A stretch of 64,000 nucleotides of DNA from Eukaryota sp. GEM-RC1. Its lineage: Eukaryota. The stretch covers positions 1,984,001 to 2,048,000 of the forward strand of contig JAUFOQ010000003.1 in assembly GCA_040285855.1 (NCBI GenBank). The letters run 5' to 3'. Shown piece after piece: positions 10,541 through 61,870 of the stretch; the first letter of the stretch is position 1, and each line of letters opens with the position of its first letter. The notes beneath the pieces were generated by a model. It searched no databases and was not told the origin of the DNA. It saw only the letters and a list, made by a program, of their open reading frames with translations. The position numbers and the translations under genes are program-made.

Positions 10541-12584
10541 ATGGTGAGATGGTGGTAGATTTTTGTAAGACAACTGTGAGTTGGTTTTTGGGTGCTTAAC
10601 CTAAATTTCCACCCAACCAACCAATTCTCTCCAACCAACCATTTCCATTTTCTGGTCAATCCCATATTTCTTCGTGGCTTCTTGTCATGCTCCGCCTTTC
10701 CACAACTACGAACAGCTTGTGACAGGCTGCTTTACGCTCTTCACAATGAATGGCGATTTATACCTTGGGTCCTTTTGCACTCACTTCCCTAACTGTCTCT
10801 TGCGATGGACTAAGATCAAGTAAGCTGTGGTACCTCTTGGATTGTCTCTGTTTTTTAAACTGTAGAATGTTCATTCCTTATCGTTGTGAAGAGACTGGTT
10901 TATGGATGTTGATGTGCCATAGTCGCTATTTCATAGCATCATCGTTTGTAGTCCTAGGGTGTTTGTACGTGAAACATAGACCTTATTTAACAAGCAGGAT
11001 AAGTTCTTTATCCACATCAACTATCCGCTGTTCATTGTTAGTTGTATAGAGAAAAAGAACAAGAATAAAAGCCCAGCCTGGATAGCGGTCCTCAAATACT
11101 GAATGTCTCGTTTCGTCACAATTAGAGACCATTTGATCGATCTACTTAACAGTGGTCCTTTTGGGACTGATGGAATGAAAGGATCTCTTGTGATCAGGGG
11201 AGGTTGTGGAATACATCGCACAAATACATTCCATAAGGTTTGGGTCCTTCTGGGGAGTCATCAATGGTGTTACCCTCTACTGTTTTGATCTGAATCCATG
11301 GATGGAGTGATTAGTGTATCAGCAAGAGAAGTGTTTAGTGTTTGGAACTGAAGCACAGATTGCCTGCAGAGAGAAGACGCATGTTGTAGGAGACATCAAC
11401 TGTTTGGTTGGTAAATAGGTGGAAAGTGGGAGTTAAGAATCTCCCGTGAAATTCACAGAATGTAAATTTCTGAAGAATCTACAATGTAGATCTTAAAGAA
11501 TGAATCAACACATATCTCGCTACATAACTAGAACGTGATACTACACTACATGTACAATGTAGAACGGATCTTGAGGATTGACACACTTTGATTTGGATTT
11601 GATTAGACCAAACTATTTTGTTTTATATGGGAAATTTGGTTCTTATACCAAGGGTTTTTTGAATATTTTTGAAAGATTGTGACTAGGTTTTGGGAAGAAA
11701 TTTAACGGATCGTTTTGGCGTAATAGACTTGAGTTCTCGTTATTCAGGTCGATGTACCGCTATTTTGGCCAAGCAATGTGGGAATATCTATTCAGTAGAT
11801 TTGGGGAGCCATTGTAGTACTTTTATTTAGTTTGTGTTTTTGCTAATGTTTTAGATAGGGTTTTTTGACCATAAAGCTCCTTTTTTTGTTTTACTTGTAA
11901 TCATAAGCAGGTTGTAGCATGCTTCCACGTGTTAACACGGGGCTTGTAAATGTCGCTGGAAAAAGGTATTGGTTTGGAAAAGAATTCATCGAAATCAAGT
12001 CCATAGTCACAAATATTGTACGACAGATTTAGTTATATTAGAACATCGGTTTTTTTCCCGTTGTATGCTGTCAAACTTCAAAACGGGGTTTTGAAGGCAT
12101 TTGAATGCTTGGATTTCTAAAATCGTTTTAGTTTTACTAAAAATAATAATCCCGTTTTTGCTGCTTTCTTAAATGATATTAACACCTCATCTTTGTTTGA
12201 TCACACAACAACCACGTCGTTTTGGTTTGTATTTGTCTGATGAAGTTTGGACACTATTCATGTGATTACCTTTATTTTTGTTTCCTGCTGAATTGCTCGA
12301 CAAATTTTAAATCTTTCTAAATGTTGTTGATCCACAGTATCATCTCCACCTTTTATGAAGCTGCACAATTTATAGATGTATATGTCTTATATATTTCTGT
12401 AACCAATATTGTATTGCATTGATACAATACAGACTAGTAGTTCCATGATTTTCATTACAATTCATTTATGGGTAACTACAAAATCCACCAAGGTGCAATA
12501 AGTTTAACCAAAATCCACCCAATTTAGTTTCCACCTTTTTGATTCAAATACCACCTTCTTCTAGTGTTCTTCTTCTTAATGACC

Positions 12585-12800
12585 ATGGGTTTGAATCTTA
12601 GTAAACTCAAGTCTAATGATGTTATTTCCATCGAAGTGAATCAAACTTATGAATCACGTTCACAAATGCTTCAAACCCTTCATCAATACGCCATCCAAGA
12701 AAACAAAGAGTTTGTTCTGGCTAACAACAACAACAAAATTCGCTTTAAAATTGGATGTTTGGATCCTAACTGTGGTTTCTTACTGAAAGTCAGACTTGTT
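12585..12800 (+). pseudogene. MuDR/Mutator transposase N-terminal (DBD_Tnp_Mut-like) remnant
   Basis: IEVNQTYESRSQMLQTLHQYAIQENKEFV...RFKIGCLDPNCGFLLKV resembles the MuDR DNA-binding domain; the downstream sequence is broken by stops. Confidence 0.65.
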
Positions 12801-14429
12801 TTTGCCCTTCTTTTCAATGCTTATTTTGTTGGCCAATATTGCAGCTAATATGTATGTTTTAGATGGTGGAAGAATAATTACCTATCGTATGTGTAGAAAA
12901 TTAAGTAAATCAATTTTTAGAGAGAATTGCTGGGTACACTTGTATTGTCCTTCAGACATCAAACGAATTCATCTTAAAACAGTAGTTATTATCAACTACT
13001 ACGACTGTAGCTGTGAAAGAACTTAAAAGTTCCAAAAAGCTATTTATGTTTTCTTCAACAAAGATTGACACAGAAATAGATCTAGAAGACGATTTAGAGT
13101 CCTTTTGGACATGATAGAGACTTTACAAGTTGACAAAGAAATTGACCAAGAGTCTCTTTCGAATAAATATAGACGATCTAGTGTTGGTAAGACTCACATC
13201 GTACCAATCAAAAGTACTGTCACTACCTATATTTTGAATGAAGAAAATTACTTTCATCATCACTTAAACGTTTTAAAAACATAAATCTGAGGGTTCCCTT
13301 ACCTTCAGAAAAGTAGAATAGTCACGAGAGTTCAACCAAAGATACAGAAAAGGCTGCAAAAGACCTTGCTCAACGAAGTGTGGCAATCCAGATCGGGCAA
13401 GAGAGAGAGAGAGGTTAGGAGAACATGAAGTACATAGAAGAGTTACTAGAATGCAAGGATCTAGAAGTAGATTACGAAAGTGAATGTGGTTGGAAGTCAC
13501 ACAAACATGGACACGTAACAAACAACAGAATTATTGCTGAGGGGGAAGAATGATGTGCTAGCAGTAGAGTTGAAGTGAGGTAGATCACTAGTTCTAGTTT
13601 CATTCGCTTTCAATGGAAGACTACAAGCTTGAGTTTGATAAATTGCAACGTACATCATAATTAAAGTCAGTTGTTGTATCTAGTGTATGGTCTCATCACA
13701 CCTAGACAGTAAGATCTGGAGTACGATCTAAGACACATTTATCTACATCAATAAATCAAACATGTTCTACTCTTTCTGCTAATTTCTCCATGAGTCAAAT
13801 GTGGGGAGCAGCTGTCACAAGACAATCTTCCAGTAACTAGAGTATCACTAGATTTCCGTTGATCTCTTCTGATCATAGAGCGACAGGTCACAATGTCTCG
13901 GCTCTTGGAAAGTGTTGTAATACAATGGAAGCCGATTTATTAATGCTTGCTGAACACGTTCGCTTAAGTAAACACTACTCCTAAAAAGAAAACATTGAGT
14001 GTAATGCATTGAGGAAAACATGTACGAGTTATATGGATTGAGATAAGAAGGAATCAATCAGGGGAAGAATTGTTGTGTCAAGGACTCTTTCTTTCTTTCT
14101 TCGACCGACCCAACGACACTTTCATTGCTATTTATGTCCTTGTGTATTCATTTGATATCAAGAAGAAATAAGCGAAGATGCCACTATAATCGGTGTGATT
14201 GCTGTCAACTTGTTTTGCATGGATATATAGGAGATACTTAAAAACCAAAATGATATAGCTTTTTAATCCGTTAATTATGTCTCTTAGACATAATAAGGAA
14301 CCATTTATGATTAGTTTCAAAATGATTGTGTGAGTGGTTTATTGTATAGCATATCTCTGACTTGATATTTTTGTGTTTTATCAAACGTTGGAACAATCAA
14401 AATTGCATTGTTCAAGTCCAGAAGTCATA

Positions 14430-20659: not shown

Positions 20660-20805
20660 ATTGAACACACTTTCAAACTACCCAATTCCGACATGTAACC
20701 TACATCTTTGCTTTTACGTAAACTTTCAAAGATTTTTGGTGACGTATCGTAACAATAATGACCAAGCATGTAGCTTAGAAGATCGAAATCGACATTTTTT
20801 TCTTT

Positions 20806-22210
20806 ATGAATCCGGCGTTTCTTCCTGATGCTGTCGTCAACCTAGTCTATTGGACCAAACCTCTCGTTTCAGGACTTGCTGTTCTCGTTGGCTGTGCTGT
20901 CTATTTGTTGTGGAAATTAGGAGGTGCGTCGATCATCAGTATTTTATCTGTGATGAGCTTTGTGTATCTTGTCCTAGGCCATCTTAAGAAACGTACTTTT
21001 CCTGGTCTTATTAGAAGTCGAACTTCCTCAATCAATGATCATTCCCAAAACACTATCTCTTCTGAATCTTTTCACCACTTCCTTCTCGGTATTCAACCCC
21101 TAACCAATCGTCTTTGTCAATTAGGATGGAAGATCTTCACATTTAAGGATACCATTCTGACAATGAAGGCTACTTCAATTTGTTTGATTATGTATGTTAT
21201 GGGCACACATATTACTGGTATTACCATTTTCTTTGCAGTTTTCTTGATCACAATGTTTGTTCCAAAGTTATGTGCTACATTTCCCAATCAAATGTTCTTT
21301 GTTCACACTGTTGTTCCTCAGCAGTTCTGTCGTTTTGTTGACAGTTGTGTATTTTGTGGTAGAAGAGGTGTTGTCCGCTGTAAGTTTCTATGTGTCAAAA
21401 TAATACTGAGGACAAAGCTTGATCATTTCCTTAGAAGAATCAGAATTCTAAAATCCGTACATTCTACTACCAATGACCATCTTCGCGGGAAACGTCAAAG
21501 AAAGAGGAGTAAAAGCTCCAGCCACTATAAGTTGAATCTGCCGTTTCTTCCTGATGCTGTCATCAACCTAATCTACTGGACCAAACCTCTCCTTTCAGGA
21601 CTTGCTGTTCTCGTTGGCTGTGCTGTCTATTTATTGTGGAAATTAGGAGGTGCGTCTATCATCAGCATTTTATCTGTGATGAGCTTTGTGTATCTTGTGC
21701 TAGGCCATCTTAAGAAACGTACTTTTCCTGGTCTTATTAGAAGTCGAACCTCTTCAATCCATAATCATCCCCAGAAAACTATCTCTTCTGAATCTTTTCA
21801 CCACTTCCTTCTTGGTATTCTACCCCTAGCCAATCGTGTTTGTCAATTAGGGTGGAAGATCTTCACATTTAAGGATACCTTTATGACTTTAAAAGCTATT
21901 GGTGTTAGTTTGTGTATGTATCTCATGGGCATTCATGTTAGTGGTCTTACTATCATTTTTGTAGTTTTCTTGATCACAATGTGTGTCCCAAAAATATGCG
22001 CAACCTTCCCAAATCAAATGTTCTTTGTTCACATTGTTGTTCCTCAACAGTACTGTCGTTTTGTTGACAGTTGTGCGTTTTGTGGTGGAAGAGTTGTCGT
22101 CAGATGTAAGTTTCTATGTGTCAAAATAATACTGAAAACAAAGCTTGATCATGTCCTTCGGAAAATCAGAATTCTAAAATCCATAGATTCTACTACCAAT
22201 GACCATCTCC
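20806..22210 (+). repeat. Intragenic tandem duplication, period about 726 bp
   Basis: 20806-21484 and 21532-22210 are closely similar at DNA level (for example TTTCTTCCTGATGCTGTC...CTACTACCAATGACCATCT). Confidence 0.95.
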
Positions 22211-23354
22211 TTGAGAAACTAGTGGAAAGTGGAAACAGCTACAACTACTATGAGTCTGTAGTAGAAGTCAAGAGACGTACTATTGACTGGGATAGGTTAA
22301 GTTCTAAGTTAAAGAATTTGTGTGAAGAAATCACGGAAAACAGGGTTGTTAATGTCAGTCTTCAAAGTAACTCTATTGGTCCTGAAGATGCTATTGCGCT
22401 TGCAGATGCTTTAACAGTGACTTCGTCTGTTAAATACATCTATCTACAACGGAATTCTATTGGATCTGAAGGTGCCATTGCAATTGCAGATGCCTTAAAA
22501 GTAAATTCGTCTGTTACGTTTGTCGATCTTCAACATAATTCTATTGGTTCTGAAGGTGCTTTGGCAATCGCAAAGACTTTAAAATTGAATTCATCAATTT
22601 CTGGTTTATTTCTTGAAAATAATTCTATTGGATCTGAAGGTGCTTTAGCATTTGCTGATGCCTTAAATGTGAATTTTTCACTTACTTATATCAATCTTTC
22701 AAATAATTCCATTGGGTCTGAAGGTGCTTTAGCAGTCGCAGATGCTTTGAAGGTAAATCCTTCAGTTACTTACATTAATCTTTCAAATAATTCCATTGGT
22801 TGTGAAGGTGCTTTAGCAGTCGCAGATGCTTTGAAGGTAAATCGTTCAGTCACTTATATCAATCTTTCAAATAATTCCATTGGTTGTGAAGGTGCTTTAG
22901 CAGTCGCAGATGCTTTGAAGGTAAATCGAACGCTTTCTTCTCTTGTGCTAGTCAACAATTCCATTAGGTCTGACGGTGCTACAGCCCTCGCAAAAGCCTT
23001 AAACGTGAATTCCTCTCTTCTTTTCCTTAATCTAGATGACAATTCTATTGGCTCAGAAGGAGTTATACCTATTGCACAGGTTCAAAAATGGATTCGTCTG
23101 TTACTTTTATGCTTCTTGCTAACAATTCCATCGGCAATATAGGTATTGAAGCCCTTACCGAGGCTAAGAAAATGAACTCCTCTATTGCCGTGCTTGGTAT
23201 CACTGGTAACTTCATTGATAGAGATACGGAAGAGTTGTTCCTGAAAACTCACATTGGACCTGAAATTCAAACAGCTCTCGAACAGTTTAAATTTAAATTG
23301 TTAGCTCAGCGTCCTCCATTTTTAGACAAGAGAACTTTTTATGACTGGTGTTGA
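20806..23354 (+). CDS. Tandem reticulon-like domains fused to RI/NLRC3-type leucine-rich repeats; apparent -1 frameshift near 23086
   Basis: Two copies of VNLVYWTKPLVSGLAV...SIISILS...LITMFVPK (reticulon homology pattern), then about 10 28-aa repeats LSNNSIGSEGALAVADALKVN. Confidence 0.85.
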
Positions 23355-26548: not shown

Positions 26549-28045
26549 TTACAACACTTTTTCAATTATTTCAATCAGATCTACACACGAGTATCCAGCT
26601 CCTGGTCCACATTCAGCTATAATACGAATAATTGGTTCAGTATTTGATGGTCTTAGGTGCACCCACCACTTGTTCTTTCCATCAGCAACAGACGAAATCT
26701 TGACTCCATCCAAAGTTGAAACGACAACTCTATCAGAAAAGCTATTAACTATTGGCTCCAACAGACTTTGAATATCCAGATCTGAAGGTACCGGTTTCTT
26801 AGTCTTGACCATTTCAAACACAGGCAATTGATTTCGAAGCTCTAAAATAGAACCATTGAAATGTGCCAATGCACTGAGAACAAGAGAAGCAGCCACTGGA
26901 GCATCCCTACCAATATGACATTGAGTTACCATTACTCCTCCATTACCCTCTCCTCCAATAACGCTACCAAGTTGACTCATCTTCTGAGCCACGTTGATTT
27001 CACCAACTTTGCTTTCAACTACATTGTACTGATGTTGTTTAGCAACGTAGTCCACAAGACATGAAGTTGAACAGTTTTTGACAATGTCGCGGGAGTCCTC
27101 AGGGTTGGGATTAAGAGAAGATAGGAAATGTTGAAGAGCCAAAACGAGAGTTAATTCTTCACCTAATGGTTTACCATCATTACCAACCAACACACATCTA
27201 TCTACATCAGGATCAGTGGCTATACCTAAATCACATTGATTCTCAACTACTACTTTGCACAGTTGGTCAAGATTCTCAGGAATAGGTTCTGGAGGGTGAG
27301 CAAAGTTACCAGAAGTATCAATGTTTAAGGGAATAACAGTGCATCCAAGAATGCTTAGAAGAGTAGACATAATCGGACCTCCAGCACCATTGACAGTGTC
27401 AAGGGCTACTTTGAACTTGCGTTTCGCGATGAGAGGGGCATCAACACATGGGATTTGTAGAATACTAGTGATATGATCGTGAATAGCATCATCATAGACA
27501 GACAAAGAACCATAATCGTTTGGTGGTGAATCAATGTTCTCAATATAAGTTTCAGAAAGGAGCTTTGCGGCTTTGGAAAAGATTTGTTCACAAACTTGGG
27601 GTGAACAAAAGCAACCATCGTTGTCTACAAATTTAAGTCCATTCCATTCAATGGGGTTGTGAGAAGCAGTGATTACAATTCCACCGGCAGCGTTGTGTTG
27701 CAAAACAAGGAGTTGAACTGTGGGTGTAGGTACTATATCAAGAGATATAACATCACAATTATAGCATCTAAGGGTTTCCACAACAGTGGTGAAGATCTCG
27801 GGACCAGATATGCGAGAATCACGACCTACAACAATTTTGCTGTTTCGTTTCAGTGAAGCGAATGATCGAACATATGCACGGACAACGTCGGTTGTTAGGG
27901 ATTCACCGACAATTCCACGAACCCCTGAAACCGATACCATTAAAGGAGCCTGACTACTGAAGTTCTTGCGCCCTGTGGGAACATCCTGCTCAGATAAGTT
28001 TGTAAGAGATTCTGGCTGTGTTCGTGAAGCAGTTGAGGAAGACAT
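26549..28045 (-). CDS. Alpha-D-phosphohexomutase (phosphomannomutase/GlmM-like, prokaryotic type)
   Basis: SVSGVRG, GRDSR, TASHNP (phosphoserine), DPDVDR (metal binding), GEGNGG, HLRPSNTEPIIRI. Confidence 0.93.
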   Translation of the reverse strand: MSSSTASRTQPESLTNLSEQDVPTGRKNFSSQAPLMVSVSGVRGIVGESLTTDVVRAYVRSFASLKRNSKIVVGRDSRISGPEIFTTVVETLRCYNCDVISLDIVPTPTVQLLVLQHNAAGGIVITASHNPIEWNGLKFVDNDGCFCSPQVCEQIFSKAAKLLSETYIENIDSPPNDYGSLSVYDDAIHDHITSILQIPCVDAPLIAKRKFKVALDTVNGAGGPIMSTLLSILGCTVIPLNIDTSGNFAHPPEPIPENLDQLCKVVVENQCDLGIATDPDVDRCVLVGNDGKPLGEELTLVLALQHFLSSLNPNPEDSRDIVKNCSTSCLVDYVAKQHQYNVVESKVGEINVAQKMSQLGSVIGGEGNGGVMVTQCHIGRDAPVAASLVLSALAHFNGSILELRNQLPVFEMVKTKKPVPSDLDIQSLLEPIVNSFSDRVVVSTLDGVKISSVADGKNKWWVHLRPSNTEPIIRIIAECGPGAGYSCVDLIEIIEKVL

Positions 28046-28317
28046 TTGTCGAAATGTTTTAGAACTGTAAATACATTTTTCAAGTAAATCAACATGGATG
28101 ATCTTCTAAATCAATGCCAAGATAGGTGGACTTTATGTGGCATTCAGTTCAACTGTTCAAAAAACAAAGATGGAAATAATTATTGCTTATAAATAAATAT
28201 CAAATGATCTGAAAGAAATACAAAAGCAAACAATGATACCTCAAACTATGAAATGATATTTTGAAGATATAACCAAAACAATACAAAACTATTCAGTGAA
28301 AGTAACATGAAAGTAGA

Positions 28318-29045
28318 TTACTCTGAATCAAACAAACACTCAGAAACGTCAGCGCTTTCCTCAACAGATTCTTCTGACAGTTGATCAAAATCCTTATAGA
28401 CACTGTCATTTGGCAACTCTATTCGTAAATCTTTGAAAGTTTTAACAAGACTATCTGCATAAAGAGTACCAAAAGATTGAATGACAGCAATTGGAACAAC
28501 GCCGTCGAGTGACCTATCACCAAGTGGCAAAAGATTAACTAGTTCTGCTTTTTGTTGAAACAGATCCACAATTGATTGTAACTCACAAGCTGTTGAGCTG
28601 ATAGAGGTAGCAGAAAAGAAGGTGTTTAGAGAATGTAGGTGAGCAATGACATCAACGGACACATAATCAGTGGAGTTCTGATGATGAGAGGATGCTCCTT
28701 GAGCAATTGAAGAGAGCCAATGACCAAAGGAAACACTGCCACCAGGTTGTAGAACATCCTTGACAACCTCCATTACGCCATCTAATTCAATTTGTGAAAC
28801 AAGCTCAGCCCCCCAGAGGTCATACGAAGCAGCGGTAGAAAGAAAGTCATCAAGTGCAGAACGAGACAGCCGCCCATTTGTAAACTTGAGAAGGTATAGC
28901 ACCGGCAACTCCTTTATCCTAAAGAGAGGGTTGTCCAGAAAGGAAAAACCAATGAGTTCATTGAATCCTATATAGCCATCAGAGGTCAGTGAGTACTCAA
29001 AAGGTCATCAAGCTGTGCGACGAGAAAACTTTGAGCATTGCCCAT
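28318..29045 (-). CDS. Predicted N-myristoylated protein with degenerate EF-hand-like loops; apparent -1 frameshift near 29000
   Basis: The ATG at 29045 gives MGNAQSFLVAQLDDL; one extra T continues into FEYSLTSDGYIGFNEL and ORF 28318..28908 (NGRLSRSAL). Confidence 0.6.
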
Positions 29046-29104
29046 TCACCAAAGACATTGAAAGACACAACAAAGTTCACTTCATCTACCTGACCAGACT
29101 GTTC

Positions 29105-30488
29105 ATGGATGAAGCTTGTCTTTCTCTATGTTCACAATTTACCGACAAGACGCACATAAACTTTGGACAAGATCTTTATCGAACACATACAAAACTCTTC
29201 AAATCCATATTATCCGCTAAACAGCTGCCAAATGAACCATGGTCAGATTCTTCTATCGATCTCTTTATCAATACATTGTCAAATCTTGATACAAATAATT
29301 CTTCATCTGCTGTTCTTATTGGTGAAAGAGAAGGCCGAGTAGCTTCACATTCAGTTCGATCTCGTAATTATAATCTTAGTCATGGAGTTGGAAGAAGTGG
29401 CAATCTTACTGCCTCCCAACCGAAAGCTCCTGGATCTTCTGTTCTTTATCAACTGACAAATGCTCTGGCCTTGGACATTCTAAAGTCCTTAGGTCTCAAG
29501 AAGACAGAGTCATGTTTTATACTTCCAGCAGCAACAGGGATTGCTATCATGATGTCTTTATGCTCTCTTAGGCTCCAGCGTCCTGGTAAAAACACTGTGT
29601 TATGGCTGAGATGTGACCAGAAAAGTGTGCCGAAAGCCATCATCACGGGTGGATTCAATCTAGTTGTTATTGAACAAGTTGTTGTTGACGATGAGTGCGT
29701 GTCTGATTTAGATTCACTGCAGGAGGTGATGTCTAATCGTGAGGATGTGCTAGCTGTTGTTTCAACCACTTCTTGTTTTGTCCCAAGAGGATGTGACGAT
29801 GTTTTGAAAATAGGAAGAATGTGCAGGGAAAATGAAGTTTTTCATGTTGTCAATTCAGCGTATGGTCTGAATTCATCTCTATCTGTTAAAGCACTCGCTC
29901 GCGGACTCAATGAAGCCGTTGTTGATCTTTATGTTCACAGCACTGATAAGAACTTCCTCACGCCTGTAGGAGGTTCCATTGTTGCCGGCAAACGTGATTT
30001 GGTCCAAAATGTTTCAAATTCTTGGCCAGGGAGAGCAAGCATTTCACCCATTCTAGATTTCTTGATAACTGTTCTTTCTCTTGGAAAATCAAAAATAATT
30101 GAACTTTTTGTTCAACGAGAAGAGTCCTTCAAACACTTATGCACAAGCCTATCATCATTTGCTTCCAGAAATAGGAGAACGTCTGCTTTGTCTACCACAT
30201 AATGAGATCGCCTCTGGAATCACACTTAATTCTCTTACACATGAAGAAGTTCAACAACTAGGAAGAATGCTTTATAGAAGAAGTGTGTCTGGGTGTAAGT
30301 TTGTTGGGAATTGTGATAATGTTGTTTTAAATAATGTCACAATCCAGGAATTCGGACATCAAGCAATTGGATATCCTAACTTTTATCTAAATTGTGCTGC
30401 AACAGTTGGTGTACGCACCTCTGATATCGACCAGTTTGTTGAGAAAATGAGGAAAAGTATCAAGGAGATATTGAAGAAACGAAAATAA
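29105..30488 (+). CDS. SEPSECS: O-phosphoseryl-tRNA(Sec) selenium transferase; apparent +1 frameshift near 30165
   Basis: GEREGRVAS, HGVGRSGNLTASQPKAPGSS, RCDQKS, TTSCFVPR, STDKNFLTPVGG (PLP lysine), PGRAS. Confidence 0.96.
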
Positions 30489-30544: not shown

Positions 30545-30967
30545 CTAAAATAGAGCGAAAATACCCATACCAACTAAAACGACATTTGCTAACCAACCAA
30601 TGATGAAGAAGTAACTTCTTGGACTTGGATTTCGTTCAGTTCCGATGACGTAGTAGAGAATCATGTGAATCACTCGTGCAATAAGGATAGTAAACAACAA
30701 TCCGGTAACCCATGAAGGATTTGCTCCGGCAAGAATTGCAAAGAAGCCACCCCCTAGCATCAATCCAAGGTTCTCTAGAGTATTCTGGTGAGTTCTGTAT
30801 GCTCTAAAGACAAAGCTATGGTGGTTTTGGTCCTTTGGAGGATAACCGGGAACTGCATCAGGAAGGCGGCCCTTAGATACCGTAGCAACAACCCATTGAA
30901 CTATAACTAGCACTAGAATGAGGCCAATGGCAAGTAGAGAAAATCTGTAGTCTTGGAGATCGAACAT
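30545..30967 (-). CDS. MAPEG family membrane protein, bacterial type
   Basis: 140 aa with 4 TM segments; SFVFRAYRTHQNTLEN, ARVIHMILYY, ERNPSPRSYFF. Confidence 0.88.
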   Translation of the reverse strand: MFDLQDYRFSLLAIGLILVLVIVQWVVATVSKGRLPDAVPGYPPKDQNHHSFVFRAYRTHQNTLENLGLMLGGGFFAILAGANPSWVTGLLFTILIARVIHMILYYVIGTERNPSPRSYFFIIGWLANVVLVGMGIFALF

Positions 30968-31452
30968 TGAACAAAATTAGCTTGGTGAAGAGCTCAAAAC
31001 CGACTCTCACCAAATTGTTAAAACTGCACAAATCAAAATGAAAACAAAACTGTTGATAGTTTTCTTCATTGAGCTTGGAATAGTTTCTTTTTGTATCTAA
31101 GCCATAATATGAATTGACTTTTTCGTTTTTTAAGTCAATATACAGATATGATTGATTCGATTTTCGCCAAGTTGTTTTGTGGACATTAATAAAACACCAC
31201 TTATACATCTTTGTTGTGTTCTCAATAAATAAGAGCAATCAATGTGACGATTGTTGATCACATCATCACTTATTGTAGCACTACTGATATAGGTGAAGAA
31301 TACATAACAGAGATATCAACTCATAAGATCTGTTCAAAGTAACTTCAACAAACACCATGACCATCATTTCAACAATTGATCCACAAGTGAAATTTTCAAA
31401 AATGATCAGTACAGTGTAGCTATTGTACTTTATTCGAATGTTGCCAGAAGTA

Positions 31453-32034
31453 CACTAATCATGGTAATTAGTCTCACTCAGACTAATTCATATGTCAATG
31501 TCCAAAGGCTCCACATGGTAAATAGTTTCACTCAGACTAATTAGCATGTGAGACTAATTAGCATCTTAGAAAAATAGTCTCACTCAGACTAATTATCATT
31601 GTTGGAAATTAGTCTCACCTCCAAAAAAAAAATTTGTTGTCATTCACTAAGATCAATAGAGTAGGGAAACATTCGTTCGGTACGTCTGCTTGTATTTGTC
31701 CCACAACAATCATATTAGCATGGGTATACCAACTAGAAGCATGTGATAGAACAAGCTCATAATTGAAAAAACGACGTCCTGACTCAATTTCTTGACTTGT
31801 AAACACAAACATCAGCGGAGATGCTATTCACAGGAAAATAGAAGAAAAATCAACGTGGTTCAGTATCTGTATTCATCGAATACTGTTCTATTTTATTGGT
31901 ATTTTATCACAAAAAGTGGTACTAATTTCCAATCGAGTTTCAGTTTAAAGTGTTACGACATGAGAATTAGTCTGAGTGAGATTAATTAACATGTGAGACT
32001 AATTTCCAATACAGACTAATTACCATGATTAGTG
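31453..32034. mobile_element. MITE with CACTA termini, TA flanks and AATTAGTCT/AGACTAATT subterminal repeats
   Basis: Perfect 22-bp TIR CACTAATCATGGTAATTAGTCT; TA on both sides; many AATTAGTCTCACTCAGACTAATT units. Superfamily (CMC/EnSpm vs Tc1/mariner) unresolved. Confidence 0.88.
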
Positions 32035-33529
32035 TATCAATTTACGATAACAAGAAAAAATATATTTGAAAAACTTCATCCCTAATTAGTCTCAATAACC
32101 AGAACATAAATTGGTCTCAGTGAGACTAATTTTCATTTTAGACTAAATGAATTATGTTTCATTATTCGGTACCCAAAACGGAAACTTTCCTACATAAATA
32201 TGTTTGTAAAAACAAACAAATATGACTAAGGCTAAATCCTAACGACTTCATTCCTATATATTATGTGACCTGTGTACTTGTCGCAATTGTTTAGTATGTT
32301 CTTATAGTCTGTTTTCATAGTGCTGATTATACCGTCAAAAGGGGTACTAGTATCAGTATCAGTGAAAGTATAAGACATGGGTTTATTGGACGGAGATTAG
32401 GAAATTCTAATCTATAATTAAGGTAATTAATCAACAATAGTCTGTATTTATATTCAATTTAATTGTGTAGCTCGTTTTACAGTCTGTATTAATATTCAGT
32501 TTCTTGTTGTGTGTTTGTGTTGTGAAACATGGCTCTGTATAACTATCAGTGAGATTACGATTATCAAACATAATCAAATTTGCAGTACATCGTTTGCTGA
32601 GGACAACTTTCCCAAAATGTCAATGCAATATACGAAACTCAAGAATTGCATGAAAACACCAACAGTTATGTCATCAACGAACTTTTTACATGAAATGGTA
32701 AAATCACAAATGAAGAACCCAATATTGGATTTCTAAACGACTAAATAAGCAAAAGCAATTGATAATGATGCTGATTTTTAACTCCAAGATGAATTCTCGT
32801 CAATAAAATGCGTGCATTTTCCATTTTAGTCATGGAAAGTTTGGCATTTTTGGACAAACAAATCTCACATCTTTAGGAACATTGTGTAAGCAGTAAAGGA
32901 ATAACTTTAATGAACGTTATTTAGATTCAGGTCTTTCCACAATAACTTTATCTCAATATGTTCAAATACACCCTGCATCAACAATTTATTACATGCCCAA
33001 AATGAGTACCAATAAGTTTTGATATACTGAAATACATTGTATATTGATACTACAATTTGTATGGTCTTTTGATAGTTAACCCCAAATCAGTGGAATTACT
33101 CTCAATACATGACCTGTTGTTATCGAAGAATGACAAACAGAACTGATACTTGACATTGTAGTAACACATAAAGGTGTTTTCAATTTGTTTTAATTTAGTC
33201 TACTACATGTAGTTTTCTACTGATTTTTAAATGCCTATTCTCCAACGAAAAAAGTAGATTATAGTAGGAAAACTGGATTGGAAACCATCAATCTCAAATC
33301 AAGCCGAAAGGCTCCTCTCTATGGCTAAACTCGTTGTTGATTATACTAGACACACCGAAGCATTTGATTATAGAGTAACTGCTTCTGTTGAAAGACAACT
33401 TATGGAATACAGACACTACCAGGGACTTATATCGATTGAGAAAATTAAGCCAACTCGTGGAAGAAGTTAACCAACCAATTGGTAGTGCTAAGTTTATGTA
33501 TACTTTTGTTACCGTGACACTGCGGAAAA

Positions 33530-33830
33530 ACGTAAAATTGATTTGTATTCCAAAGATGTTGCTAAACTCAATGAAAATTTGTATTTGTTCCATTTGATAT
33601 TTCTAACTTTGGCAGTATTGGTGAAATGGTTTCTTCTAAGTTTTTAACTGATTTTGCATCTACTAGTATGTGTAAGTCTCAGAATATGAGATTTAACTTA
33701 TCACTTTGGCATAACCGTTTGATTTTTTCTTTGTTCCGTTCAATGCCTAAGTTTGTAGATCAATTTTCACAAAGTTGTATAAGAACTGTGGTACTGTTGA
33801 CCAGAAATTTTCTGCGTCTAGTGTTTTTTC
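33530..33830 (-). repeat. Dispersed repeat, inverted copy of about 61300-61585
   Basis: Shared AACTTAGGCATYGAACGGAACAAAGAAAAAATCAAAMGGTTATGCCAAA...GGAACAAATACAAATTTT; the ORF track shows near-identical peptides at 33626..33844 and 61252..61458. Confidence 0.9.
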
Positions 33831-34059: not shown

Positions 34060-34227
34060 TGTTCAGACTAAATATGAATATTCACAAATACTCTGATTCA
34101 GACTAATTTTCCCAGTCGTTAATTAGTCTGAATCATTAATTTGTCTGAATCAGAGTAATTATTGTATGGGGCTGTTTCACTAGACATTCATAATTAGTCT
34201 GATTCAGACTAATTGTTGTGAAGAGTG
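34060..34227. mobile_element. Orphan right end of a related CAC-ended element
   Basis: AATTAGTCTGATTCAGACTAATT repeats ending in ...GAAGAGTG followed by TA; matching left end not found. Confidence 0.55.
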
Positions 34228-34411
34228 TAGTATTTTGTTTACAGGACCATTAAGTGGTTAATTGGTGAAAATTTGTTCGCATAATTTGGGAACCAATCAA
34301 TTGCCAATTCAATTTTGAGTACCAATGGATCCTGGTATCATTTTTGTGTGGATTAAAAAGTCCTTGGAAAAAGAATGCGTTTTTATTCAATGATGTTCTT
34401 TTGTACCTTGG

Positions 34412-35628
34412 TCAACTAAGTCTACCTCTTCTACTGAACAGCCTAACTGATCGGTAGTGAAGTTGTGAGGTTTCCCAATTTTCAACATTTCTATCATACG
34501 TTTCATTCTGTCTTTTTGACTTTGATTTTTGTTCTTGAATATATATTTCTACCTCTTCCACAGAACAGCCTATCTTGTGGGCAATGGAATCATGGGGTTC
34601 TTCCAATTCTAACAGTTCATCCATGAGCTTATTTTGTTCCTTTGTCGCTCGGCGAATGTCTTTTACCTCCTCTATAGAACAGCCTATCTTGTGGGCAATG
34701 GATTCATTTGGTTCTCCTCTAGATAAAAGTTCAGCTATTTGCTTCAACTGTTGGTATAATTGATTAATTTCCGCCCATTTTTCTTCAAAATGGGCTAATA
34801 GTTTTGCTCAATGTTGTCCTTCCATACTTTACCATAAGCTTCTTTCAGAACCTCAGACGTTCCCGCCACTCTTCTGATATCTTTGACTTGCTTGTAGAAG
34901 TCTTTTGGCCCAACATCCGACTGTACAATGTTGGATTCCTTGAATAGATATAGTAATCGGTCATCATCACTGTCCAATTGATCTTCAGTCTTATTAAAGT
35001 ACGTAAGTGCGACAAAGAATACCTTGACCAAATCTCCACCCAATGGTCTTAATCCTTCAGGAGTTTCAGCCTGGAACTTGTATGTAGTGAACAAAGTCTT
35101 TTCAGCAATGATGGGTGTACTTGCATTTGTGATACAGATGACAGCTGATAGTCCCATGTTGTCACTGAGGGAGGCTACTCCTTTGCGGTCTCTGTCATAG
35201 ATTAGCTTTCTTCTTTCGCTATCAAAACGTATCCTGTTCCAATTTGATCTCGTTTCAGCAACTTCAGTTATTAGTTTTTCATAATAGGTCGTGTCGAATT
35301 TTCTTTGCATTTCAAAGCAAATGATTCTTTTGGTAGTGCCTTGACCTTCATCTTCAGCAGCGACCAGATCTGCTGTGAAATCAAAGGTTCTCGGTGATGA
35401 ACTGTCAAATTCCACTGGGAGAAGGGCGACGTTTCTGAAAGGTAAGTCACCATCGTCAGCATTTCTAAGTACCATATTAATAAATTCCCTGGCCAGTGAT
35501 GGATCGTGCATGATTCTTTTGAATGCCCAGTCAAAGCAAGGATTAATGATCTGGAAGGGTGAGTCCTCAGGAATTTTGAAGCCTAGTGTTTGGGGTTGTA
35601 CTTCTGTAGATTTGTCAGCAGATGACAT
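34412..35628 (-). CDS. Rpn family (PD-(D/E)XK nuclease / putative transposase) protein with duplicated C-terminal helical module; apparent -1 frameshift near 34803
   Basis: IINPCFDWAFKRIM, EFINMVL, ADLVA, ICFEMQRK, FNKTEDQLDSDDDRLLYLFK. The C-terminus has QIAELLSRGEPNESIAHKIGCSIEEV and DELLELEEPHDSIAHKIGCSVEEV. Confidence 0.82.
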
Positions 35629-36738: not shown

Positions 36739-37067
36739 CAGTGAACGCTAACACATAACATGACCTGACACGTAACACGCGTGTTAACACGTGTTAGGAG
36801 TGTTCGCTGATTTCCAACAGGCAAATATCGGTTATCGTTTTCGGTCTGAATGAGGTGCAAATGTCTTTTGTTGCTAAAAGAATGAAAGACGACGTTTTAC
36901 AAGTCCCCTATAAGAATGTAGAGTATCGTGGGGATGAATGTGTAGAAAAAATGAGCTATCGATATCAATCGTTGGATCAGAAACAAGGAAGAATTCTTGT
37001 AACGCAAACACGCAACACGCGTGTTAACACGGGTTAGATTCAGTTTTGTAACGTGTTAGCGTTCACT
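36739..37067. mobile_element. MITE with AACACGCGTGTT palindromic subterminal repeats
   Basis: Perfect 16-bp TIR CAGTGAACGCTAACAC; no convincing TSD. Confidence 0.78.
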
Positions 37068-37156
37068 GCTTGCTTTTGGTGTGAAAACATAATTGGTCCA
37101 ATATTTATTTCCGCTCTTTGACTAGGAGGTTTGTTTAGTTCAGCTATACTGGATAG

Positions 37157-37525
37157 CAGGGCTCTTCAAAAAATAATTGCATTTTGCAATTATTGCAATA
37201 ACACTGTATTGCAATCGTGCATAGGGTGCATAGGGTTGCAATAGTGCAGTACGGTATTGCATGTTGTTTCGTTATTGCAGTTATTGTAAGCAATACTCAG
37301 CCAATTGCCGAAACTGTTTTTTTGTTGTTTCTTATCATGATCTAGGAGTAGTGTGGTGTATTCAAAGCATAAATTATAAAATTGACGGGTGTTATAAATA
37401 CCAGTGTATAAAATAACATAATGTAGCAATTAAGCAGCAAATTTGTCGTTGAATGATATTGCAGTACAGTATTGCAGCAACACAAATTTTGACAATATAT
37501 TGCAATTATTCTTTGAAGTGCACTG
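37157..37525. mobile_element. MITE with TATTGCA subterminal repeats
   Basis: Imperfect TIR CAGGGCTCTTCAAAAAATAATTGCA vs CAGTGCACTTCAAAGAATAATTGCA; no clear TSD. Confidence 0.72.
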
Positions 37526-38698: not shown

Positions 38699-39396
38699 GT
38701 CTAATCTATTAGTACTGTCGGGACGGTTCGTTTTACTTTAGTGGTTTATTGTCAAGGATACACTTTACTTTGTGTCTTAGGAATGATCTGTATGAATGTC
38801 TCTTCATTGAAGACTATTTCTGGTTCAGTTGAGATTGTCTTGGATGTTGGTGTTCTTTTGTAACTATATACAAATGTTAAAGTATCTAATAATGTTTGGA
38901 GAATGTCGAAATTTGTTCTGTCGCTTATTGATGAGTAGATACTTTTTTAAAAAAAATAAACTGATTTGTGATTGATCACTCAACAACCACGTCCTTTTGG
39001 TTTACATTTTACTGATGAAATGGTTTCCTATATTTTAATGAAATTAGGGTCTCAGTTTAAGTCATAATCTCAGAATGAGAGATTCAACAATAACTCTATG
39101 TTTGCAACAATAGATCAACACATGTAAAAAATTAAATTCTCCACACCACTATACAACTTCGAGCAAATGGGACTCAAATAGATAAACTGTAGGATTCAGC
39201 GTCTCAGTTTAGTAAAATGAGATCATCATGTCCAGGATTATAAATTCAATTGTCCCCAAGTTGAAACACACCTTTTCACCAGCCAAACCAAGAACGATAT
39301 ACAGTTTTCATCAAAAAATTGCAGCTACACTAATGTAACTTGTAATTTGTTCGCTTCGATTTTTAAGTTTTTGTTTTCAATACCTCTATAATAGTT

Positions 39397-40246
39397 ATGA
39401 CTGTCCTTCTTCCCTCTTCTTTGAGGTCCCACTCTATTATTATTCGAGGTGCTGGTGAACTTGCTACCTCAATTGCACATAGACTGGCCAAAGTGTCTTT
39501 TACTGTTCTTTGTCTAGAAGTAGAACGCCCACTTTGTGTCCGAACTACTATATCATTTGCTTCTACCATACTCTCTTCCTCTGGGTCTTGTACTGTAGAA
39601 GGAATAACTGCTCAAAAGGCATCCAATATCAATGACGTATTTACCATATGGGAACAAAAGAAAGTTGCCGTCCTCAATGCCCCACACCTCTCACCAGAAC
39701 TTCTTTCTTCTATTAAACCTCTTGCCATTGTTGATGCAATGATGACCAAGACTAACTCTAACGGTACTCATCTTTCTCTCGCTCCTTTAACTATTGGACT
39801 TGGACCTGGGTTTACTGCTGGCGAGGATGTGCATTTTGTTATTGAAACCTGTCGGGGTCATGATTTAGGTAGAATTAATTCAAAGGGAAAGGCTATAGCT
39901 AATACTGGTATTCCTGGTGAAATAGGATCTAAAACTCACGAAAGATTATTACGAGCATGTTGTGATGGTGTTGTTACTCCTTTAAAAATCCATTGGAGAT
40001 TTTGTTGATAAGGGGGAAGTGGTAGCTACTGTTGATGGTGAAAACGTAGTATCTGAAATCAGTGGCGTAATCAGAGGAATGATCTCTTCTGGAGTTTGGG
40101 TCGGGAATGGGGTCAAAATTGGTGACGTGGATCCACGTGATGGAGCTCAGAATTACACTCATACTTTGACTGATAAGAGTCGGACCATTTCTGGTTCAGT
40201 TTTGGAGGTGATAATGGCTCACTTATTTAATAATTCAAAACTTTAA
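39397..40246 (+). CDS. yqeB: YqeB-family selenium-dependent molybdenum hydroxylase system protein; apparent +1 frameshift near 39986
   Basis: IIIRGAGELATSIAHRL, ERPLCVRTTISFA, TVEGITA, IVDAMMTK, IGLGPGFTAGEDVHFVIETCRGHDLGR, NTGIPGEIG, ERLLRA. After the shift: SIGDFVDKGEVVATVDG...ISGVIRGMI...KIGDVDPR...TLTDKSRTISGSVLEVI. Confidence 0.92.
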
Positions 40247-60616: not shown

Positions 60617-61299
60617 ACAGAGTTATTTGGGACAGAGGTTTTGGTGAAGATGGAGTAAAGGATCACAATCCTGTAATGGAGACGAATTTCAATTAAACTG
60701 TAAATGGCCAAACAATAACTCAAATGTCACACACACAACGTATTATTCGGAAGTATACGTAGGAAATCGGTTCAAATGAACCATGTACTGATGTCACTTA
60801 ATGTTTTATAAGTACATACAAATAGGAAACAGTTCTCACTGCAATGTTGTTCCAAATTACAAGCCCCTCAAATTTTTGATAGTAAGGGTGTGAAACGAAA
60901 ATCATGTACTGTATATATTTTGTTAATAATGGTTGTGGCGTTGTCATGGAACAGTTTGATCCACTTTTGATGAAAAGAGAACAACTTTATTCGGTATCTA
61001 AACAGGTAACCGTCCTACCAAAATATAAATTTGCAAAAAACAAACAAATAATACTAAGACTAGATCCAAACGGCAGATTACGCTTTTTAATATTAATCTC
61101 CAAACCAAACTTCTACAATTTCTCAACTTATAGAGAGAAATAGTAACGAATATTCTAGTATATGGAAATCACAATGCGATTTTTCCATTCAGCCATTCTA
61201 AACTTACACTTGTCCAAAAAAAAAATTGTGTGTTCAAAATTAGAAGAAAGTTTATCGATGAAAGGCACAACAATACACATCATAATGGAAGCTACGAAA

Positions 61300-61585
61300 C
61301 ACTGGACACGGAAAATTTGTGGTGAACAGTTCCACAGTTCTTATTGTTATAATTGATCTAAAAAACTTAGGCATCGAACGGAACAAAGAAAAAATCAAAA
61401 GGTTATGCCAAATGGATAGGTTAAATCTCTTATTCTGAGACTTACAACAGAGATCCAAAATCAGTTAAAAACTGAGAAGCCATTTCACCAATACTACCGA
61501 AAATAGAAATCGCAATTGGAACAAATACAAATTTTGATTGAGTTTAGTAACGTCTATGGAATACAAATCTATTTTACTTTTTTCG
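61300..61585 (+). repeat. Dispersed repeat, second copy of about 33530-33830
   Basis: Direct sequence match to the minus strand of 33530-33830, with indels. Confidence 0.9.
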
Positions 61586-61870
61586 GCTAATTCTAGTGGT
61601 TGAAACCTTTTTGAATTTACGCCGTTAACCATAAGTTTGAGCGCATGGATCTACTGTTGTAACATCAAGGATAAATTGACTGGAATCAATAAAAGGACCA
61701 TGTAAGTCGCCTCGACGAGAATTATTAATTAAATCAAGACCCAACTTACTAAATTATGGTTTCACTCTGGCATGAAATCCACCTACAAACATCCAAAGAA
61801 AAATGTTTTTTGTGTAGACAGGCTTTAAACATGTTAAGTTCATTTGGAATTTTCTTTTTACACCTCTTCA

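What the first reader, a model, noticed from the sequence alone, without database searches (positions are those of the whole stretch)
34412..35628. Bacterial Rpn-type PD-(D/E)XK nuclease with a duplicated C-terminal RpnS-like module in a TE island
Seen: an Rpn-family N-terminus with apparently intact catalytic residues (D-x-x-F-K, A-D-L, E-M-Q) and two 38-aa C-terminal repeats (SIAHKIGCSxEEV). A homopolymer break at about 34803 falls just ahead of the C-terminal part. Known: bacterial Rpn proteins have been described as toxic anti-phage nucleases neutralised by a small C-terminal protein translated from an internal start. Inference: this may be a laterally acquired defence or toxin-antitoxin module in a protist, possibly antiviral, with a doubled inhibitor domain. 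Whether the C-terminal part is made separately is unknown.
Basis: partly seen in the sequence, partly recalled or inferred. Interest (0 to 1): 0.72.

Follow-up and report, generated by a model that had tools for sequence, protein, structure and literature searches.

The report
Symbiont-type Rpn nuclease in a protist
A protist chromosome carries one gene for a bacterial-type DNA-cutting enzyme, likely taken from a bacterium that lives inside protists; its two reading-frame breaks are likely sequencing errors, and it would make one protein with three tail repeats rather than a separate toxin and antitoxin.

Summary
The gene is real: a divergent Rpn/PDDEXK_2 nuclease at 35628-34387 (minus strand) among intron-bearing eukaryotic genes, on a 2.55 Mb contig. 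RpnA's D11/D63/E82/Q84/R94 map to D33/D87/E106/Q108/K118. About 14 similar one-base breaks split host genes in the window (SepSecS, YqeB and UAP confirmed by profiles), and the family profile runs through break 1 without a gap. The breaks are therefore likely assembly errors in one ~413-aa gene, not the border of a separate antitoxin. RpnS hallmarks are missing: no start codon or Shine-Dalgarno site at the RpnS position, and no four-residue EG repeats. The closest relative is a protein of another protist (45%). The next are a distinct subfamily from Paracaedibacteraceae and Holosporaceae endosymbionts and unnamed metagenomes, 18 of 30 with signal-peptide-like N-termini (0 of 11 ordinary Rpn). 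Trees do not fix the donor. Best reading: an old lateral transfer, now a single-chain nuclease whose extra tail modules act in cis. Expression, activity and any antiviral role are untested; a decaying pseudogene remains possible.

The parts
34387..35628 (-). Whole Rpn-like gene, about 413 codons when read through both breaks with X
   Evidence: a profile of 21 relatives aligns from residue 20 to about 370 and has no gap at break 1
34795..35628 (-). N-terminal ORF as assembled (277 aa): PD-(D/E)XK core and helical region
35275..35532 (-). Catalytic-motif codons D33, D87, E106, Q108, K118 (RpnA D11, D63, E82, Q84, R94)
   Evidence: Alignment with E. coli RpnA; RpnA mutants in PMC5350276
34802..34805 (-). 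Break 1: A4 run, one base missing; likely assembly indel
34745..34801 (-). Long helix before repeat 1 (position of the RpnS dimerisation helix), without EG tetrad repeats and without an ATG in frame
34661..34744 (-). HTH repeat 1, homologous to the Rpn terminal HTH
34547..34630 (-). HTH repeat 2, preceded by the first in-frame ATG of the tail (34624)
34507..34548 (-). Break 2: one extra base somewhere in this stretch (A5 runs at 34513-34517 and 34526-34530)
   Evidence: Repeat spacing 127 nt
34420..34503 (-).
34382..34389 (-). TGA stop of the last frame, overlapping an AATAAA (weak sign of a 3' end)
   Evidence: 4 of 22 host genes have such a hexamer near the stop; background 76 of 1086 windows
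31451..32036 (.). Non-autonomous element with 24-nt perfect inverted ends (TA then CACTA...) and subterminal TCAGACTAATT repeats; does not contain the gene
34063..34229 (.). Right end of a related element, about 160 nt beyond the gene's stop
36739..37068 (.). Small inverted-repeat element upstream of the gene
37157..37525 (.). Small inverted-repeat element upstream of the gene

Best explanation
This is one protist nuclear gene for an Rpn-type PD-(D/E)XK protein with intact catalytic residues and three C-terminal helix-turn-helix repeats, likely acquired long ago from a protist-dwelling alphaproteobacterium and likely made as a single ~413-aa chain. Shown: the domain, the residues, the three repeats, the eukaryotic neighbourhood, the relatives. 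Inferred: both frameshifts are assembly indels; the protein has no secretion signal and stays in the host cell; it would cut DNA with Mg2+ as RpnA does; because a scanning ribosome cannot use a bacterial internal start and that start is gone, no RpnS is made, and the two extra copies of the tail module would act in cis, restraining the enzyme or binding DNA. Its likely use is against foreign DNA (symbiont, prey or virus), which is a guess from the family's known activity.
For: Family: 21 of 23 aligned proteins match PDDEXK_2, the window's own not among them; Atlas features 0.96 and TM 0.71 to PDDEXK_2 models; model pTM 0.80 whose VIA-align list is rich in restriction-endonuclease-like folds at Z 3-4.7. 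Residues. One gene: profile score 149 bits with X at break 1, 137 for a 38-nt intron model, 133 for the N ORF alone; 14 similar breaks in 22 host genes over 34.5 kb, 0.5 expected in a gene of this size; SepSecS (profile 2-298 and 294-388), UAP (50-123 and 124-289) and YqeB (1-178 and 179-255) continue across theirs. Host residence: contig of 2,548,325 nt; GC 0.41 and GC3 0.39 inside the range of 13 host genes; closest relative RCL1_002677 of Eukaryota sp. TZLM3-RCL, 45%, sister at 100/100. Donor side: named relatives are Ca. Finniella and Ca. Hepatobacter; 6 of 62 genomes of Finniella's order, one copy each, 3 of 301 sampled from its class; a profile of 8 such proteins scores the gene 116 bits, one of 10 ordinary Rpn 52. 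Selection on repeats: dN/dS 0.58, 0.20, 0.27 over 27 codons.
Against: No reads or transcripts could be laid, so neither the indels nor expression are shown. Two breaks in 1242 nt have P about 0.05-0.09 under the host rate, and that rate rests on junctions most of which I judged by eye; several could be introns. The protist relative is annotated as only 191 aa and stops at about residue 172, without the tail. The gene sits in a gene-poor stretch of transposon relics. Codon adaptation (0.665) is at the low edge of the host range 0.668-0.731. AU tests do not reject placing the protist pair as sister to the whole subfamily (p 0.56) or with two Bacteroidota Rpn (p 0.15); its stem is very long (3.3). 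Most relatives are unnamed metagenomic proteins. Repeats 2 and 3 do not score above shuffles against the Rpn tail profile (59 and 26 of 300 as high).
Confidence: 0.5

Rival explanations
1. A laterally acquired gene that worked for a long time and is now a pseudogene: one or both frameshifts are real.
For: Two breaks where 0.4-0.5 are expected (P 0.05-0.09); relative annotated as truncated; position among transposon relics.
Against: No in-frame stop in 277 codons or in the repeats; all five catalytic positions kept; both breaks are in A runs like the host-gene breaks, which also hit genes such as SepSecS, Mre11 and ORC1; dN/dS below 1 between repeats.
Confidence: 0.22
2. One reading: a eukaryotic toxin-antitoxin pair in which the tail is made separately (internal promoter, leaky scanning to the ATG at 34624, or a real stop at 34795) and neutralises the nuclease, for antiviral defence.
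For: Repeat 1 is the Rpn terminal HTH; ATGs at 34624 and 34506 each precede one repeat unit; bacteria duplicate rpnS downstream of rpn (PMC10327210); the two linkers differ by four residues (38 and 42), the step seen in RpnS.
Against: No ATG at the RpnS position, no Shine-Dalgarno match, no EG tetrads; six in-frame and many out-of-frame ATGs lie upstream of break 1; the profile crosses break 1 without a gap; no slippery heptamer at break 1.
Confidence: 0.1
3. A domesticated housekeeping nuclease or DNA-binding protein (repair, recombination, prey-DNA digestion) with no role in conflict; the HTH array targets it to DNA.
For: Apparently low copy (no second 90% cluster among proteins of 152-485 aa; none in the window); kept in two protists; the tail model's best structural neighbours are DNA-binding HTH proteins, all at E above 0.1.
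Against: Fast divergence and repeat gain fit conflict genes; no genome was held, so copy number is not known.
Confidence: 0.15
4. Bacterial contamination or a chimeric join of symbiont DNA.
For: Bacterial gene family, no intron; long-read style errors in the assembly.
Against: Single gene with no bacterial neighbours, repeats shared with other parts of the window on its flank, host-like GC, 2.55 Mb contig, sister sequence in another protist genome.
Confidence: 0.03

Closest known systems
E. coli RpnA-E / RpnP2 (RpnL-RpnS toxin-antitoxin, anti-phage; Zhong et al. 2023, PMC10327210; Kingston et al. 2017, PMC5350276)
   Same: PD-(D/E)XK core with the family's E-x-Q motif; all five tested active-site positions map (R94 as K); long helix plus terminal HTH.
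   Different: Eukaryotic host; no internal start or Shine-Dalgarno site at the RpnS position; no four-residue repeats; three HTH units; very distant in sequence (RpnA branch length above 7).
PDDEXK_2 (PF12784) / TIGR01784 Rpn family
   Same: 21 of 23 aligned proteins match PF12784; Atlas structure matches TM 0.68-0.71.
   Different: The window protein itself is below both curated cut-offs; it belongs with a separate subfamily split from ordinary Rpn (89/93 in the careful tree; 100 SH-aLRT without long branches).
Undescribed Rpn subfamily of Ca. Finniella, Ca. Hepatobacter and related MAGs (P0003-P0029, L001-L003, L009-L011)
   Same: NPC-x-D-x-x-FK, EMQ, K for R94, ITN and Y-K motifs; 21-27% identity over the aligned length.
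   Different: 18 of 30 have hydrophobic signal-like N-termini and many keep EG tetrads; none has more than one HTH unit at 8 bits or more. The window protein has no such N-terminus, no tetrads and three repeats.
RCL1_002677 (KAL0224765.1), Eukaryota sp. TZLM3-RCL (named Skoliomonas sp. TZLM3-RCL, a metamonad, in PMC11316075)
   Same: 45% identity over residues 14-174; sister at 100/100; no hydrophobic N-terminus.
   Different: Annotated 'hypothetical protein', 191 aa, ends before the helical region and the tail; its DNA could not be fetched.

Membership tests
Rpn / PDDEXK_2 nuclease family | Passes the curated PF12784 or TIGR01784 cut-off | tested here: not met
   TIGR01784 21.4 bits against 52.1; no PF12784 hit
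Rpn / PDDEXK_2 nuclease family | Homology through relatives that match the family | tested here: met
   phmmer hits to E 1e-16; 21 of 23 aligned members match PF12784 at E up to 0.01
Rpn / PDDEXK_2 nuclease family | PD-(D/E)XK fold | tested here: met
   Atlas TM 0.71 over 240 residues to a predicted PDDEXK_2 model; VIA-align Z 3-4.7, many restriction-endonuclease-like chains, none clear alone; Foldseek nothing at E 0.001
Rpn / PDDEXK_2 nuclease family | Active-site D, D, E-x-Q, R | tested here: met
   D33, D87, E106, Q108; K118 in place of R94, as in most of the subfamily
Rpn / PDDEXK_2 nuclease family | Mg2+-dependent DNA endonuclease activity | not testable with these tools
   Needs purified protein
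RpnL-RpnS toxin-antitoxin system | Internal start with ribosome-binding site before the dimerisation helix | tested here: not met
   No in-frame ATG in that helix; best Shine-Dalgarno match 3 bases at 8 in-frame ATG/GTG/TTG sites; control RpnA 6 bases
RpnL-RpnS toxin-antitoxin system | Variable four-residue repeats in the long helix | tested here: not met
   No EG tetrad; only a 38 versus 42 residue difference between linkers
RpnL-RpnS toxin-antitoxin system | C-terminal helix plus HTH module | tested here: met
   Repeat 1 scores 10.2 bits, 0 of 300 shuffles as high; predicted helix-turn-helix units. Direct BLAST to RpnAS is not significant (E 0.093)
RpnL-RpnS toxin-antitoxin system | Small protein made separately, binds and blocks the long one | not testable with these tools
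   Needs ribosome profiling and binding assays
RpnL-RpnS toxin-antitoxin system | Protects against viruses; lies near defence genes | tested here: inconclusive
   No defence gene recognised among neighbours; no PADLOC match; protection not testable
Transposon-borne gene (cargo or transposase) | Terminal inverted repeats flanking the gene | tested here: not met
   Best left-right match 12 nt, E 0.35; elements nearby do not enclose it
Signal-bearing endosymbiont subfamily | Hydrophobic N-terminal signal-like stretch | tested here: not met
   Maximum 11-residue hydropathy 0.24 against 1.8 or more in 18 of 30 members; a crude proxy, not SignalP
Signal-bearing endosymbiont subfamily | Nested inside the subfamily in a tree | tested here: inconclusive
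   Falls on the subfamily side in three trees; sister placement not rejected, p-AU 0.56

The most novel reading that the evidence does not exclude
Intracellular symbionts of protists turned the Rpn anti-phage toxin into a secreted nuclease, and a protist host captured the gene and rebuilt the gene-within-a-gene antitoxin as tethered tail copies, giving a self-restrained single-chain nuclease (or decoy against the symbiont's toxin) for defence against symbionts or viruses.
Probability: 0.15. Interest if true: 0.8.

Novelty: new variant of a known kind. Interest (0 to 1): 0.5.

Why it matters
[quoted passage not shown] A toxin whose antidote depends on a bacterial internal start should be hard for a eukaryote to keep. 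This gene suggests one way round that, by tethering extra tail modules, and the idea can be tested in E. coli or yeast. The signal-bearing subfamily in endosymbionts is a separate lead: a secreted Rpn could not work as an intracellular toxin-antitoxin pair and may be a host- or competitor-directed effector.

Tried and rejected
No whole genome is held, so paralogs and synteny could not be counted. No sequencing run was listed, so no reads were laid. Complex prediction of nuclease plus tail modules was not available (queue full; nothing folded). Word-indexed searches found only the protein itself, 2 proteins with the alignment and nothing for the tail; Atlas gave no usable hit for the tail. No relative in viral contigs, phages, plasmids or metagenome contigs (84). 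Foldseek found nothing at E 0.001 for either model; RpnAS (7TH0) was not among the listed rows; the one significant sequence hit for the tail was a 'CAP repeat' chain, 8vd6, made of near-identical HTH repeats. A 38-nt GT-AG intron would also mend break 1 but scores 12 bits lower and is purine-rich, unlike the two 28-29 nt pyrimidine-rich introns I read by eye; rejected as less likely. Programmed frameshifting: no slippery heptamer at either break (hits at 35594 and 34476 only). Internal starts in bacterial relatives: Shine-Dalgarno matches of 4 or more bases in 2 of 6 subfamily loci and 3 of 9 ordinary Rpn loci other than RpnA, so that test says little for these bacteria. No strong basic nuclear-signal cluster in the window protein. 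My notebook called the 31451-32036 element CACTA-like; its 3-nt flanks differ and the shared flank is TA, so a TA-duplicating type is as likely (labels recalled). Searches covered the same 62 genomes and count once. Three look-ups of earlier findings returned nothing.

Full report
Observation. The minus strand holds an ORF of 277 codons at 35628-34795 and, in other frames, 34807-34412 and 34548-34387. Three DNA copies of an 84-nt unit lie at 34661-34744, 34547-34630 and 34420-34503, spaced 114 and 127 nt. They translate as GEPNESIAHKIGCSIEEV, EEPHDSIAHKIGCSVEEV and GKPHNFTTDQLGCSVEEV. Break 1 lacks one base at an A4 run; break 2 has one extra base.

The breaks. The window is eukaryotic (NMT, a CDK, eIF3b, Mre11, ORC1, a USP; two short introns read by eye) and many of its genes are split by a base. 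One search examined 14 host junctions: one I read as an intron (MFS), 11 lack a base and 2 have one extra; a further one (IQCA1-like) was seen. Three are confirmed by profile continuity: SepSecS, UAP and YqeB. The rest are by eye, and GT-AG candidates exist for most. With 14 breaks in 34.5 kb of 22 genes, 0.5 are expected in this gene; P of two or more is 0.09, or 0.05 if only 10 are counted. A profile built from 21 relatives, without the two protist proteins, aligns 'LKEAYGKVWKDNIEQ-X-LLAHFEEKWAEIN' to its consensus without a gap and scores 149 bits, against 137 for a 38-nt intron model and 133 for the N ORF alone. The break therefore lies inside a once continuous frame. Whether it is an error or a mutation needs reads; none were listed.

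Family. Direct matches are weak: TIGR01784 E 1.9e-4, below cut-off, and no PDDEXK_2. The full-library search gave 31 proteins at E 0.001 or better, the first being the query. I aligned 23, leaving out three low-complexity or very long hits and five partial or odd ones; 21 of 23 match PDDEXK_2. The Atlas places the protein with PDDEXK_2 by features (0.96) and structure (TM 0.71). My model (pTM 0.80) gives only middling structural matches, many of them PD-(D/E)XK nucleases (Z up to 4.7). Aligned with E. coli RpnA, D11, D63, E82, Q84 and R94 fall on D33, D87, E106, Q108 and K118; Kingston et al. show that D11A, D63A, E82A and Q84K lose all activity (PMC5350276, passages).

The tail. The fold of 34807-34415 is long helix, short helix, long helix, repeated. 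Repeat 1 matches a profile of 20 Rpn tails (10.2 bits, 0 of 300 shuffles); repeats 2 and 3 do not on their own but are DNA copies of it. None of the 42 other proteins has more than one such unit at 8 bits or more. Between copies dN/dS is 0.58, 0.20 and 0.27 over 27 codons, a small sample chosen by similarity. In Zhong et al. (PMC10327210, parts 1-3 of 4 read, supplements not seen; commentary PMC10400984 read whole) RpnS starts at an internal site with a ribosome-binding site, 8-20 residues before four-residue repeats in a dimerisation helix. Here that helix has no in-frame ATG and no EG tetrads; none of 8 in-frame start-like codons in the tail has a Shine-Dalgarno match above 3 bases, while RpnA's scores 6. 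The first in-frame ATG is at 34624, after repeat 1.

Relatives. The best hit is RCL1_002677 of Eukaryota sp. TZLM3-RCL, 45% over residues 14-174, an organism named Skoliomonas sp. TZLM3-RCL, a metamonad, in PMC11316075 (passages; 'Rpn' occurs 0 times in its main text). It is annotated as 191 aa and lacks the tail. I did not determine the window's own organism. Of 20 hits looked up, named ones were this protein, two clusters of Ca. Hepatobacter penaei (Holosporaceae per PMC11909080, passages) and one EukProt Pedospumella entry; the others are unnamed. The genome scan gave 5 loci, three in the subfamily, one titled Ca. Finniella. In that order 6 of 62 genomes carry one copy each, two of them beside about ten ordinary Rpn matches; 3 of 301 genomes sampled from the class match, one being the centre genome. 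By a hydropathy proxy, 18 of 30 subfamily members begin with a signal-like stretch, against 0 of 11 ordinary Rpn and neither protist protein. Such symbionts are known to encode many secreted proteins and toxin systems (PMC8163844, passages).

Trees. With 43 proteins the protist pair is a clade (100/100) on a stem of 3.3 and falls on the subfamily side (89/93); a 34-protein tree without nine long or partial rows agrees. AU tests do not reject a sister position to the whole subfamily (p 0.56) or a join with two Bacteroidota Rpn (p 0.15). Profile scores favour the subfamily, 116 against 52 bits. Kinship with the subfamily is thus supported; the donor and direction are inferred, not shown.

Context. 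The contig is 2,548,325 nt. GC and GC3 lie within the range of 13 host genes, codon adaptation at its low edge. The gene sits alone in 6.8 kb between MAPEG and a WD40 gene, among non-autonomous inverted-repeat elements; none encloses it and 0 of 71 short ORFs match a transposase.

How it likely works. Shown: domain, residues, three repeats, host context, relatives. Inferred: one ~413-aa unsecreted protein that cuts DNA like RpnA. In bacteria the free RpnS binds the long form through the shared tail. A eukaryote cannot make RpnS from a Shine-Dalgarno start, so keeping an active enzyme would favour restraint in cis; the two added modules are the natural candidates, though DNA binding by the HTH array is as plausible. 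I give this reading 0.5, a pseudogene 0.22, a housekeeping role 0.15, a true two-product system 0.10 and contamination 0.03.

Novelty. Seven paper searches (listings only, apart from the papers named) showed no report of a eukaryotic or signal-bearing Rpn; the library lacks most subscription journals, and the unseen dataset of Zhong et al. may bear on this. It works like, and descends from, Rpn, but fails two defining tests of the RpnL-RpnS system. Verdict: new variant of a known kind, interest 0.5.

Noticed in passing
P0003-P0029, L001-L003, L009-L011, L023-L024: An apparently undescribed Rpn subfamily, one copy per genome in 6 of 62 genomes of Ca. Finniella's order, 18 of 30 members with signal-like N-termini against 0 of 11 ordinary Rpn (Fisher p 0.0008, kinship not corrected). 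Candidate secreted nucleases of endosymbionts.
   Followed up: partly
P0017 and P0028: A second branch without signal-like ends; P0017 comes from a Pedospumella encystans set in EukProt. Could be another transfer to eukaryotes or a symbiont transcript; grouping with the window's pair is neither shown nor rejected (p-AU 0.49).
   Followed up: partly
window 39367-40246 (+) and 28976-30488 (+): YqeB (TIGR03309, selenium-dependent molybdenum cofactor protein, a prokaryotic family) and SepSecS in one protist window; each split by one base.
   Followed up: partly
window 26549-28105 (-): Phosphohexomutase whose best NCBIfam match is archaeal GlmM (TIGR03990, 411 bits, cut-off 439).
   Followed up: no
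window 20779-23354 (+): Two reticulon-like domains (726-nt tandem duplication, 87%) in one frame with a leucine-rich repeat array.
   Followed up: no
window 30545-30976 (-): Intronless MAPEG family gene at the edge of the gene-poor stretch; possibly another transfer.
   Followed up: no
window 33522-33826 and 61297-61587; 32162-32251, 2551-2638 and 60987-61072: Dispersed repeats (78-85% identical) shared between intergenic stretches.
   Followed up: no
window 12543-12848 (+): Short ORF that looks by eye like the N-terminus of a Mutator transposase (recalled); no Pfam match at E 0.001.
   Followed up: no
whole window: About 14 one-base frameshifts in 22 host genes (about 0.4 per kb), mostly missing bases near runs: any 'split gene' finding in this assembly needs reads.
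   Followed up: yes
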